Made by a program: the position numbers and the translations under genes
Source: Escherichia phage vB_Eco_Jura
Sequence record: LR999871
Reading direction: 5' to 3' (one strand)
Length of the DNA stretch: 64,000 bases
Shown: positions 472-976 of the stretch, in pieces
How the letters are laid out: each line of letters opens with the position of its first letter
How positions within the stretch are numbered: position 1 is the stretch's first letter
The notes under the pieces: model-generated
Databases searched by the model: none
What the model was told of the DNA's origin: nothing
The model's input: the letters and a program-made list of their open reading frames with translations, nothing else

Positions 472-547
472 TTAGTGAACACACTATAGAACCTCCCAGC
501 TTCCTCCAGATGTACGGCAATACATTAGCTGGTAGTGTGTTCACTGA
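472..547 (+). ncRNA. Long hairpin element 1 (13-bp perfect stem, 46-nt loop) directly after tRNA-Thr
   Basis: AGTGAACACACTA pairs with TAGTGTGTTCACT; candidate small stable RNA or processing element. Confidence 0.4.
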
Positions 548-628
548 TAGGTTGTACTATCACAGTCCAGACAATATCTGCGTGACTTAAAAAACAGATG
601 GAGCCAGGTGGAATCCCTGGCAATTAAT

Positions 629-694
629 TCCGGTGTAGGTACTAGTGCTGTGCACGACATGAGTGTTCTGGTTCGAGTCCAGACGCCGGAACCA
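629..694 (+). pseudogene. tRNA-like fragment (acceptor and T-arm present, no D or anticodon arm)
   Basis: Acceptor TCCGGTG/CGCCGGA with T-arm TCTGG-TTCGAGT-CCAGA and CCA, but only 31 nt between. Confidence 0.3.
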
Positions 695-804
695 ATTTGA
701 AAGAACTCTTATTTTGGTTACCGCAAAAGAAGTGAAAAATGTTGTGGAAAACTACTTCCCAATTAGGTTCGAATCCTAAACCAGAGTAAGAGTTCTTTCG
801 AATT
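694..804 (+). ncRNA. Long hairpin element 2 (18-bp stem, 13 bp perfect, 75-nt loop containing a tRNA T-loop motif)
   Basis: GAAAGAACTCTTA pairs with TAAGAGTTCTTTC; loop carries TTAGG-TTCGAAT-CCTAA but no complete cloverleaf. Confidence 0.4.
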
Positions 805-813
805 GAAGATTTA

Positions 814-890
814 CAGGATATAGCTCAGTTTGGTAGAGCGTCTGCTTTGGGAGCAGAATGTCGTAGGTTCGAATCCTGCTATCCTGACCA
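814..890 (+). tRNA. tRNA-Pro (anticodon TGG)
   Basis: Acceptor CAGGATA/TATCCTG, D-arm GCTC-AGTTTGGTA-GAGC, anticodon stem-loop TCTGC-TTTGGGA-GCAGA, T-loop GGTTCGAATCC, CCA. Confidence 0.8.
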
Positions 891-892
891 AA

Positions 893-976
893 TTAGTGCT
901 CTGGTATATTACTTTTAACCCCTAGGTTATGCCACAGTAATACAACAGATTGGGTCATCTGAAACCAGAGCACTAA
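893..976 (+). ncRNA. Long hairpin element 3 (13-bp perfect stem, 58-nt loop) directly after tRNA-Pro
   Basis: TTAGTGCTCTGGT pairs with ACCAGAGCACTAA. Confidence 0.4.

What the first reader, a model, noticed from the sequence alone, without database searches (positions are those of the whole stretch)
472..976. Three long perfect hairpins (13-18 bp stems), each immediately after a tRNA or tRNA-like element
Perfect 13-bp stems at 474-486/533-545, 699-711/787-799 (extendable to 18 bp) and 893-905/964-976 enclose 46-75-nt loops; each starts within 0-10 nt of a tRNA 3-prime end. The loop of element 2 contains a canonical T-arm (TTAGG-TTCGAAT-CCTAA) without a full cloverleaf, and 629-694 is a tRNA-like acceptor/T-arm minihelix with no D or anticodon arm. 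This resembles stable non-tRNA RNAs co-transcribed in phage tRNA clusters (as in T4) or degenerate tRNAs converted to processing hairpins. Perfect stems of this length are unlikely by chance and are not explained by coding.
Basis: seen in the sequence. Interest (0 to 1): 0.6.

Follow-up and report, generated by a model that had tools for sequence, protein, structure and literature searches.

The report
Long-stemmed small RNAs in N4's tRNA operon
The three hairpins are real and are the closing stems of small structured non-coding RNAs sitting between the tRNA genes of coliphage N4; the middle one belongs to an unannotated tRNA-like RNA family shared with unrelated T4-like phages, function unknown.

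Summary
The window is a coliphage N4-type genome. Positions ~150-1372 are a non-coding tRNA/ncRNA cluster that ends in a terminator.

**Observation.** It is confirmed. The three perfect 13-bp hairpins are the only ones of that kind in the 64 kb, against 0.14 expected.

**What they are.** They are neither terminators nor canonical tRNAs, and Rfam has no match. Each is the closing helix (P1) of an 84-113-nt folded element on the + strand. Six of the seven non-Watson-Crick positions in the extended stems are G·U on the + strand.

- **Hairpin 2 (693-805)** has homologs in four phage lineages: N4, G7C/Moonfish, the Pylas/SP-076 group, and T4-like Yersinia phages. They share a near-invariant tRNA-like core with a canonical T-arm. 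The 25-bp P1 changes sequence but stays paired (17 of 38 pairs compensatory).
- **Hairpin 3** has one homolog, in phage Pollock. Its only stem changes give G·U.
- **Hairpin 1** is the positional counterpart of a stem family that carries different interiors in different phages.

**Most likely explanation.** These are stable small RNAs excised from the tRNA transcript, with P1 acting as a clamp or processing site. Their function is unknown.

**Limits.** Homology to T4 species 1 RNA is inconclusive. Adjacency to a tRNA is not a family trait.

**Novelty.** A new variant of a known kind.

The parts
212..461 (+). Three canonical tRNA genes (Asn-GTT 212-286, Ser-TGA 292-381, Thr-TGT 386-461) that open the operon
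   Evidence: ARAGORN; Rfam tRNA model 50-78 bits
463..556 (+). Hairpin 1: long-stemmed element. P1 is 463-486/533-556 with a perfect 13-bp core at 474-486/533-545. The 46-nt interior has its own hairpin (CCAGCT...AGCTGG) abutting the 3' strand of P1.
   Evidence: z = -6.1. Three of the four non-Watson-Crick positions are G·U on the + strand. In N4, 546 G>A turns a U·G into U-A. Found only in the 15 N4-species records. It is the positional counterpart of the AN24P2 element at L184 1197-1311, sharing the junction ...TGATAGGTTGTACTAT..AGTCCAGAC.
561..622 (+). Element A1: conserved leader-like RNA or DNA motif (AGTCCAGAC.ATATCTG...GACTTAAAAAACAGATGG, then hairpin GCCAGG-TGGAATC-CCTGGC)
   Evidence: 90-95% conserved in N4-like genera. 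Also present in temperate Klebsiella, Shigella and Salmonella phages and in 15 E. coli prophages, where a long-stemmed element follows it directly.
629..694 (+). Element A2: 66-nt tRNA-like RNA. It has a 7-bp acceptor stem, A73 and an encoded CCA, a canonical T-arm (TCTGG-TTCGAGT-CCAGA) and a central arm capped by the tetraloop UGCA. It has no D-arm and no anticodon loop.
   Evidence: Annotated tRNA-Undet in SPSP and AL25. Not called by ARAGORN or the Rfam tRNA model. 92-95% conserved. The central stem covaries (UA/CG; UG/UA; CG/UG/UA).
693..805 (+). Hairpin 2: member of a conserved tRNA-like RNA family. P1 is 693-719/779-805 (about 25-27 bp, with a conserved 1x1 mismatch). Then come J1/2 ACCGCAAAAG, P2 (GAAGUG/UACUUC plus GUU/AAC, with a variable tip), J2/3 CCAAU, and the T-arm UUAGG-UUCGAAU-CCUAA, which abuts the 3' strand of P1.
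   Evidence: z = -9.4; model R1, 123.6 bits
814..890 (+). tRNA-Pro (TGG)
893..976 (+). Hairpin 3: long-stemmed element. It has a perfect 13-bp P1 at 893-905/964-976, interior hairpins UAACC-CCUA-GGUUA and CAGAU-UGGGUC-AUCUG, the latter 2 nt from the 3' strand of P1.
   Evidence: z = -5.0. The one homolog is in phage Pollock, directly after tRNA-Leu. The alignment shows 8 differences (7 substitutions, 1 single-base gap), and both differences inside stems are C>U giving G·U.
985..1087 (+). Element B: a 9-bp closing stem around an 85-nt interior that is 98-100% identical between N4 and Gamaleyaviruses
   Evidence: The closing stem covaries (GTGGGATG/CATCCCAC against TGAGGTG/CACCTCA against TGAGATG/CATCTCA).
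1095..1191 (+). Element D: closing stem TGAACCA/TGGTTCA around an interior with a T-arm-like hairpin GTTGG-TAAGAAT-CCAAC next to its 3' strand
   Evidence: Homolog in Pollock at 82%. Two compensatory pairs.
1199..1269 (+). Element C: conserved structured RNA (closing stem AGCAGT/GCTGCT; hairpin TATTGG-TGAGACAGT-CCAATA)
   Evidence: Present in N4, Gamaleyavirus, Kaypoctavirus and Moovirus. Three compensatory pairs.
1337..1372 (+). Intrinsic terminator that closes the tRNA/ncRNA unit, just before the first downstream ORF (1392)
   Evidence: Terminator scan: 12-bp stem followed by a T-run

Best explanation
Window ~150-1372 is one + strand transcription unit of phage N4. Its four tRNAs are interleaved with at least seven non-tRNA structured RNAs. 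The three reported hairpins are the closing helices (P1) of three of these, each an autonomous 84-113-nt fold.

**Hairpin 2.** It is a tRNA-derived RNA with tRNA topology. A very long 'acceptor' helix (P1) leads to an unpaired conserved segment where the D-arm would be. Next come a central arm with no anticodon loop, a 5-nt 'variable' linker, and a canonical T-arm stacked against the 3' strand of P1.

**Inferred mechanism (not shown).**
- The precursor is cut by the host tRNA-processing enzymes: RNase P at the 5' end of each downstream tRNA, and RNase E plus exonucleases after each CCA.
- RNase III may also cut within the 23-27-bp P1 helices of hairpins 1 and 2.
- This releases small RNAs whose paired ends protect them from exonucleases.
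- P1 also stops the spacer sequence from mispairing with neighbouring tRNAs.
- The released hairpin-2 RNA then acts in trans through its invariant core, which presents a tRNA-like T-loop 'elbow' without decoding capacity. It would work as a mimic or decoy for a host or defence factor that recognises tRNA shape.

**Hairpins 1 and 3.** They belong to the same architectural class, but their interiors are lineage-specific.
For: **Shown**
1. The hairpins are far beyond chance and unique in the window.
2. Selection acts on + strand RNA. All three non-Watson-Crick positions in the P1 of hairpin 2, and three of the four in hairpin 1, are G·U on the + strand and would be A·C on the other strand (read from the arms). 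The N4-versus-window and Pollock-versus-N4 stem substitutions are G·U/A-U or G-C/G·U switches.
3. The hairpin-2 family has 11 distinct sequences from 4 lineages. 97.3% of cells are paired, against 38-52% when the partners are slid. 17 of 38 pairs have changes on both sides, and 0 of 500 shuffles reach the covariation score.
4. The hairpin-2 core is nearly invariant while P1 diverges freely, so the interior is the constrained part.
5. The family is shared by Schitoviridae and T4-like Tegunavirus. There it sits between ORFs on the transcribed strand, not beside a tRNA, so it is an independent RNA gene.
6. The neighbouring elements A2, B, C and D also have covarying stems. Long-stemmed 70-125-nt elements fill the equivalent region of every N4-like phage examined.
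7. There is no ORF, no U-tract after any of the three hairpins, and one terminator at the end of the unit.

**Precedent**
- T4 rnaC and rnaD are small stable RNAs encoded directly after tRNA-Arg. They accumulate late in infection and their function is unknown (PMC9697503, PMC3014915).
Against: - No expression, end-mapping or processing data were available, so release as stable RNAs is inferred.
- No promoter was found by the sigma-70 scan. N4 middle genes use the phage's own RNA polymerase (own knowledge).
- Hairpins 1 and 3 have almost no comparative depth: 15 near-identical records for hairpin 1, and one 91% homolog for hairpin 3. Neither has a pair changed on both sides.
- In one stem family the stem and its 3' flank are conserved while the interior is replaced outright (arms 59-89% identical, interiors 33-53%). 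This points to the stem, not the cargo, as the selected part there.
- The 13-bp P1 of hairpin 3 is too short for a classical RNase III site.
- The decoy or mimic function has no direct support. Scans of metagenome and bacterial-genome collections found no further members that could hint at a partner.
Confidence: 0.55

Rival explanations
1. The hairpins are processing or insulator signals and nothing more. The long P1 helices are RNase III sites, or folding insulators, that separate tRNAs in the polycistronic precursor. The interiors are decaying remnants of former tRNA genes and have no function of their own.
For: - All three P1 helices start at or within 3 nt of an upstream CCA in N4, and at 4 nt in Pollock.
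- In several relatives P1 pairs CCAAUU with AAUUGG, sequestering the upstream CCA.
- The P1 helices of hairpins 1 and 2 (23-27 bp) are long enough for RNase III (own knowledge of substrate length).
- In the 'CTATCAATGAGTAC' stem family the stem and flank are conserved while the interiors are unrelated.
- Many interiors keep a T-arm-like hairpin beside the 3' strand, as a tRNA fossil would.
Against: - The interior of hairpin 2 is far more conserved than its stem across four lineages.
- Hairpin 2 occurs away from any tRNA in TG1, phiR1-RT and Pylas.
- The interior of element B is 98-100% identical across genera.
- Hairpin 3 has only 13 bp.
Confidence: 0.25
2. The hairpins are mobile or recombinogenic DNA palindromes. 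These would be miniature inverted-repeat cassettes that spread or exchange between phages at the DNA level, possibly helped by homing endonucleases in tRNA regions. RNA structure would be incidental.
For: - The same terminal arms carry different interiors, and the same interior (hairpin-2 core) carries different arms, in different phages.
- Two paralogous copies sit in tandem in Pylas.
- A homing endonuclease gene lies next to or inside these regions in G7C (gp47.1) and T4 (segB).
- The hairpin-2 element is shared by unrelated phage families.
Against: - No target-site duplications flank the three hairpins.
- Each occurs once in the 64-kb window.
- The exceptions to pairing are almost all G·U on one strand, and the substitutions preserve RNA pairing. 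That is selection on the transcript, not on DNA.
- No transposase or integrase lies nearby.
Confidence: 0.08
3. The hairpins are DNA-level signals, such as cruciforms, origin-like structures or N4-type hairpin promoters.
For: N4 virion RNA polymerase does use DNA hairpin promoters (own knowledge).
Against: - Those promoters have 5-7-bp stems and 3-nt loops. Here the stems are 13-27 bp with 46-75-nt loops.
- The G·U bias is strand-specific.
- The interiors have conserved RNA-like substructure, including a T-arm.
Confidence: 0.03

Closest known systems
Phage T4 species 1 and species 2 RNAs (rnaC, rnaD)
   Same: - They are small non-tRNA RNAs encoded directly downstream of a tRNA in a phage tRNA cluster.
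- The predicted fold of rnaC has a GGGUUCGAAUCCC T-arm next to its 3' closing strand, like hairpin 2.
- They accumulate during infection and their function is still unknown (PMC9697503, PMC3014915).
   Different: - There is no demonstrable sequence or structure homology. The hairpin-2 model scores rnaC 12.6 bits, E 0.066 in a 6-kb search. It is the best hit in the region, but most of the score comes from the T-arm.
- The T4 RNAs lack a 13-27-bp closing helix.
Bacterial Y RNA-like YrlA (Rfam RF02553)
   Same: The overall design is shared: a long helix formed by the 5' and 3' ends, carrying a tRNA-like module with a T-arm and no anticodon. Phage-encoded examples are reported (own knowledge of Chen et al. 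2014, not re-read here).
   Different: - The Rfam YrlA model gives only 15-19.5 bits against a gathering score of 69, and those matches overlap ordinary tRNA T-arms.
- Its protein partner Rsr/Ro is absent from E. coli K-12 (own knowledge).
Canonical tRNA and tRNA-like structures
   Same: Hairpin 2 has tRNA topology and a canonical T-arm with the loop UUCGAAU/UUCAACU. A2 has an acceptor stem, A73 and an encoded CCA.
   Different: - There is no D-stem and no 7-nt anticodon loop.
- The acceptor helix of hairpin 2 is about 25 bp, continuous, and has no free CCA end.
- Neither ARAGORN nor the Rfam tRNA model detects them.
RNase III excision stems, as around 16S and 23S rRNA or between T7 early genes
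   Same: Long helices formed by sequences flanking a functional RNA within a polycistronic stable-RNA transcript. The helices of hairpins 1 and 2 are 23-27 bp with isolated mismatches.
   Different: - Cleavage has not been tested.
- Hairpin 3 and element B have only 9-13 bp.
- No sequence rule for RNase III could be applied.

Membership tests
Canonical tRNA | Cloverleaf with a D-arm, a 7-nt anticodon loop and a 7-bp acceptor stem, detectable by tRNA models | tested here: not met
   ARAGORN finds only Asn, Ser, Thr and Pro. The Rfam tRNA model gives no hit on 463-556, 629-694, 693-805 or 893-976, even at E up to 10.
Canonical tRNA | T-arm: a 5-bp stem closed by G53-C61, with a loop of the form UUCRANY | tested here: met
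   Hairpin 2 has UUAGG-UUCGAAU-CCUAA, invariant or conservatively varied in all 11 homologs. A2 has UCUGG-UUCGAGU-CCAGA. Hairpins 1 and 3 lack it.
T4 rnaC/rnaD-type small stable RNAs | Encoded within or directly after a phage tRNA cluster, on the same strand | tested here: met
   This is not true of every hairpin-2 homolog.
T4 rnaC/rnaD-type small stable RNAs | Sequence or structure homology to T4 rnaC or rnaD | tested here: inconclusive
   Model R1 against the T4 tRNA region: the best hit falls on rnaC at 12.6 bits, E 0.066 in 6 kb. There was no hit in the larger search.
T4 rnaC/rnaD-type small stable RNAs | Accumulates as a discrete stable RNA in infected cells | not testable with these tools
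   No RNA-seq or Northern data for N4 were found.
YrlA / Y RNA | Match to the family covariance model, including the Ro/Rsr-binding helix | tested here: not met
   The YrlA matches score 15-19.5 bits against a gathering score of 69. They overlap tRNA T-arms.
Intrinsic terminator | GC-rich stem with a short loop, followed by a U-tract | tested here: not met
   The loops are 46-75 nt and no T-run follows 556, 805 or 976. The scan finds only 1337-1366 on the + strand.
RNase III processing site | About two helical turns (about 20 bp or more) of mostly continuous dsRNA | tested here: inconclusive
   Hairpin 2 has 25-27 bp and hairpin 1 has 23 bp with one mismatch, so both meet the length. Hairpin 3 has 13 bp and does not.
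RNase III processing site | Cleavage by RNase III in vivo or in vitro | not testable with these tools
   This needs an rnc mutant host or purified enzyme.
MITE / REP-like mobile palindrome | Multiple dispersed copies, target-site duplications, and terminal inverted repeats conserved at the DNA level | tested here: not met
   Each hairpin occurs once in the 64 kb. No flanking duplications are present. The stem exceptions are strand-specific G·U pairs.
N4 virion-RNA-polymerase hairpin promoter | 5-7-bp stem with a 3-nt loop (own knowledge) | tested here: not met
   The stems are 13-27 bp and the loops 46-75 nt.
tmRNA (including two-piece forms) | tRNA-like domain plus a tag reading frame | tested here: not met
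   ARAGORN reports no tmRNA. Rfam gives no hit.

The most novel reading that the evidence does not exclude
Enterobacterial phages of several unrelated families may carry arrays of modular RNA 'cassettes'. These families include N4-like podoviruses, T4-like Yersinia phages and temperate Klebsiella, Shigella, Salmonella and E. coli prophages.

Each cassette would be a long closing helix, serving as an excision and stability module, that presents an exchangeable structured cargo. Arms and cargoes would reassort by recombination between phages.

The cargoes would be trans-acting mimics that target host tRNA-recognising or RNA-sensing factors, for example defence nucleases. The tRNA-like hairpin-2 core would be one such cargo. 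The array would then be an RNA counterpart of an anti-defence island, and in N4 it lies next to a Tad2-like anti-Thoeris gene.
Probability: 0.15. Interest if true: 0.8.

Novelty: new variant of a known kind. Interest (0 to 1): 0.55.

Why it matters
N4 is a classical model phage, yet about 1.2 kb of its genome is annotated only as three to five tRNAs. The comparison shows that most of that stretch is made of conserved structured RNAs that no database describes.

One of them, hairpin 2, is a well-supported new RNA family shared by unrelated phage families. That sharing argues for a host-directed function.

The function of the analogous T4 species 1 and 2 RNAs has been an open question since the 1970s. 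A second, compact and covariation-defined example in a tractable phage would make that question testable by deletion, pull-down and processing-mutant experiments.

Stems and interiors appear to reassort independently. This is an unusual evolutionary pattern and deserves a systematic survey.

Tried and rejected
- **Rfam.** Gathering threshold on the whole window, E up to 10 on 1-1400, and gathering threshold on four related loci. Only tRNAs appeared, plus sub-threshold noise such as YrlA, miRNA precursors and an S4 leader.
- **tmRNA or odd tRNAs.** ARAGORN found none.
- **Coding.** Only ORFs of 65 aa or fewer.
- **Sigma-70 promoter.** None passed the scan. TTGTAA-18-TATAAC at about 168-200 fails the criteria.
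- **More hairpin-2 relatives.**
  - The IMG/VR motif scan returned 8 loci, mostly the isolates already found plus one or two uncultured contigs of the Pylas/SP-076 type.
  - A looser motif gave 53 stretches in bacterial genomes and 103 in metagenome contigs. After checking for the flanking ACCG and T-arm, only one was real, and it was a contig already known.
- **More hairpin-1 and hairpin-3 relatives.** BLAST found only N4-species records plus Pollock. The IMG/VR motif scans gave only those or chance hits inside coding sequence.
- **Host matches.** Hairpins 1, 2 and 3 have no match in 5,426 E. coli genomes. Only element A1 matches, in prophages.
- **gp48-based search for related loci.** It gave only N4 plus four distant contigs with no similarity in the RNA region.
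- **Literature.** No paper was found on N4 small RNAs or on this motif.
- **Unrestricted folding of the whole region.** It gave uninformative long-range pairings. Restricting the base-pair span to 135 nt was needed.
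Full report
**Identity of the window.**
- Positions 28-1400 match coliphage N4 and its species-level relatives (VEc25, SPSP, AL25, PMBT57 and others) at 98.8-99.9%.
- In those genomes the region lies between the replication genes (SSB, gp46, gp47) and gp48/gp49, next to the virion RNA polymerase gene.
- Window ~150-1372 has no ORF longer than 65 aa.
- It contains four canonical tRNAs: Asn 212-286, Ser 292-381, Thr 386-461 and Pro 814-890.
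- It ends in a strong intrinsic terminator at 1337-1366 followed by a T-run. The first downstream ORF starts at 1392.

**The observation.**
- They extend further than described. Hairpin 1 reaches 463-486/533-556. Hairpin 2 reaches 693-719/779-805, with 27-nt arms.
- Hairpin 3 stays at 893-905/964-976.
- A scan of all 64 kb for perfect stems of at least 13 bp enclosing 20-130 nt finds these three and nothing else. Block shuffles give 0.14 per window.
- Folding energies are 5-9 standard deviations below shuffled controls.
- None of the three is followed by a U-tract, so they are not terminators.

**Which strand and which molecule.**
- Read from the arms, all three non-Watson-Crick positions in the long stem of hairpin 2 are U·G on the + strand.
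- Three of the four in hairpin 1 are also G·U or U·G on the + strand. On the other strand all of these would be A·C.
- Substitutions between the window and N4 include 546 G>A (U·G to U-A in hairpin 1) and 698 T>C (U·G to C-G in hairpin 2). They also include one that breaks a pair, 700 A>T.
- This pattern is the signature of selection on a + strand transcript, the strand of the tRNAs. It is not the signature of selection on a DNA palindrome.

**Hairpin 2 is a conserved RNA family.**
- BLAST with 693-805 finds homologs in several groups:
  - G7C and Shigella phage Moonfish;
  - the Humphriesvirinae Pylas, KpCHEMY26, FSL SP-058 and SP-076;
  - unexpectedly, the T4-like Yersinia phages vB_YenM_TG1 and phiR1-RT.
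- Eleven distinct sequences align with a nearly invariant interior. In order, the interior is:
  - ACCG-N-G/A-AAAG;
  - a stem GRAGUG/UACUYC, extended by GUU/AAC, with a tip of variable length;
  - CC(A/U)AU;
  - a T-arm UUAGG-UU(C/U)(G/A)A(A/C)U-CCUAA.
- This interior is enclosed by a helix of about 25 bp whose sequence differs between lineages but remains paired.
- RNAalifold and explicit pair counting give the following:
  - 97.3% of cells paired, against 38-52% when the partners are slid;
  - 17 of 38 pairs with changes on both sides;
  - 0 of 500 column shuffles reaching the covariation score.
- The order of parts is that of a tRNA: closing helix, unpaired segment, central arm, 5-nt linker, then a T-arm abutting the 3' strand of the closing helix. 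The differences are a missing D-stem, a missing anticodon loop and an acceptor helix more than three times the normal length.
- In the Yersinia phages the element lies between two ORFs on the transcribed strand, not next to a tRNA.
- In Pylas it lies about 1 kb from the tRNAs.
- It is therefore an RNA gene in its own right.
- Motif scans of IMG/VR, metagenome contigs and one genome per bacterial species found no members beyond these phage groups.

**Hairpin 3.**
- Its only relative is in phage Pollock (91%), where it again begins 4 nt after the CCA of a tRNA, here tRNA-Leu.
- The alignment shows eight differences: seven substitutions and one single-base gap. Two fall in predicted stems, and both are C>U changes that keep a G·U pair. 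No pair changed on both sides.
- This is consistent with a + strand RNA but is thin evidence.

**Hairpin 1.**
- It occurs only in the 15 N4-species records.
- By position it corresponds to a long-stemmed element of Gamaleyavirus AN24P2. That element ends in the same junction (…TGATAGGTTGTACTAT..AGTCCAGAC) immediately before the conserved element A1.
- The AN24P2 element belongs to a stem family, 'CTATCAATGAGTACATT…/…AGTGTACTCTTTGATAG', usually followed by TTTTCGTAAGCGATTATGCGGTTTTTT.
- This family recurs in Gamaleyavirus, Kaypoctavirus and Humphriesvirinae with at least five unrelated interiors, one of which is the hairpin-2 core in the Pylas group.
- Outside the near-identical AN24P2/St11Ph5 pair, the arms are 59-89% identical and the interiors only 33-53%, which is near background. 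N4 hairpin 1 is a diverged member, with arms 54-73% identical.
- So the same interior occurs with different stems, and the same stem with different interiors.

**Context.**
- The rest of the N4 unit is also structured RNA.

| Element | Window position | Evidence |
|---|---|---|
| A2 | 629-694 | 66-nt tRNA-like RNA with a 7-bp acceptor, A73-CCA, T-arm and a covarying central arm capped by a UGCA tetraloop |
| B | 985-1087 | Covarying closing stem around an interior 98-100% identical across genera |
| D | 1095-1191 | Covarying stems |
| C | 1199-1269 | Covarying stems |

- Folding the equivalent regions of twelve other N4-like phages with a limited base-pair span shows many elements of 70-125 nt closed by stems of 13-27 bp.
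- Element A1 (561-622) also occurs in temperate Klebsiella, Shigella and Salmonella phages and in 15 E. coli prophages.
- In the E. coli prophage examined it sits in a tRNA-free non-coding stretch between the portal and terminase genes. There and in Klebsiella phage e270.2 a long-stemmed element of another recurring stem family follows it directly.
- None of this is in Rfam 15.

**Mechanism.**
- Shown:
  - These are + strand RNA structures under selection.
  - Hairpin 2 has a constrained tRNA-like core.
  - They lie within a tRNA transcription unit bounded by a terminator.
- Inferred:
  - The host tRNA-processing enzymes cut the precursor, and RNase III may cut the 23-27-bp helices.
  - This releases small RNAs with paired, exonuclease-resistant ends.
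  - The hairpin-2 core acts in trans as a non-decoding mimic of tRNA shape.
- The sharing of hairpin 2 between unrelated phage families that infect enterobacteria favours a host-directed role over a phage-specific one.
- The main rival is that the helices are processing or insulation signals and the interiors are tRNA fossils.
  - It fits the tight abutment to CCA ends and the stem family with replaceable interiors.
  - It does not fit hairpin 2 or element B, whose interiors are more conserved than their stems.
  - Both may be true for different elements.
- A DNA-level mobile-palindrome explanation is disfavoured by three findings: the strand-specific G·U pattern, the absence of target duplications, and single-copy status.

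**Comparison with known systems.**
- The nearest precedent is T4 species 1 and 2 RNAs (rnaC, rnaD). They are encoded directly after tRNA-Arg and their function is unknown (PMC3014915, PMC9697503).
- The predicted fold of rnaC has a T-arm next to its 3' closing strand.
- The hairpin-2 model scores rnaC as the best hit in the T4 tRNA region, but only at 12.6 bits, E 0.066 in 6 kb. Homology is unproven.
- The design also recalls bacterial YrlA Y-RNA-like molecules, but the Rfam model does not match: 15-19.5 bits against a gathering score of 69.

**Verdict.**
- The interpretation as non-tRNA structured RNAs of a phage tRNA cluster is supported strongly for hairpin 2 and weakly for hairpins 1 and 3.
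- The link to T4 is one of kind, not demonstrated ancestry.
- This is a new variant of a known kind, of moderate to good interest, with a more novel modular-cassette reading still open.

Noticed in passing
window 561-622 (also L188 3002-3060, L011 1803-1860): Conserved element A1 (AGTCCAGACGATATCTGAG.GACTTAAAAAACAGATGG, then hairpin GCCGG-TGGAATC-CCGGC). It occurs in about 100 phage records, including temperate Klebsiella, Shigella and Salmonella phages, and in 15 E. coli prophages. It is never annotated. In the two non-N4-like examples examined, a long-stemmed element follows it directly. It may be a leader or start signal for these RNA arrays.
   Followed up: partly
window 985-1087: Element B. 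Its 85-nt interior is 98-100% identical between N4 and Gamaleyaviruses, while its closing stem covaries. It is the most strongly constrained RNA in the region and has no Rfam match.
   Followed up: partly
window 629-694: A 66-nt tRNA-like RNA with a 7-bp acceptor stem, A73, an encoded CCA and a canonical T-arm, but a tetraloop-capped central arm instead of an anticodon arm. It is conserved at 92-95% across N4-like genera, with covariation. Whether it is charged or CCA-repaired is unknown.
   Followed up: partly
window 1763-2248 (+): The ORF two genes downstream of the RNA array has a Tad2-like Thoeris anti-defence domain (84 bits). ORF 1392-1763 belongs to the Phage_gp49_66 family. The RNA array therefore borders an anti-defence gene.
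   Followed up: no
window 1-28 and 128-155: An exact 28-nt direct repeat (CCAAATAAAGAAAGAAGTTGTTTCTTGA) brackets a 99-nt segment containing a hairpin at 68-99. In N4 and SPSP the sequence corresponding to window 1-27 is unrelated, so this genome differs from N4 just upstream of position 28.
   Followed up: no
L014 1021-1136 and 1242-1333; L185 1194-1277; L011 ~1860-1935; L188 ~3060-3135: A second recurring stem family (CACAACAGGTAAGAGCATTG…/…CAGTGCTCTTTCCGTTGTG), again with different interiors. It is present in N4-like phages, in a 55-kb Klebsiella phage and in an E. coli prophage.
   Followed up: partly
L027 1171-1500 (phage Pollock, KM236242.1 64673-65002): The GenBank record annotates four tRNAs on the strand opposite to the one on which ARAGORN finds them, so the deposited strand is probably wrong.
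   Followed up: yes
window 59810-59901 and 61864-61961: Two further perfect 11-bp hairpins with 70- and 76-nt loops lie elsewhere in the window. They were not examined.
   Followed up: no
L013 398-895 (G7C gp47.1); L026 2754-3419 (T4 segB): Homing endonuclease genes sit next to or inside the tRNA/ncRNA regions of G7C and T4. This is a possible driver of the mosaic exchange of RNA elements between phages.
   Followed up: no
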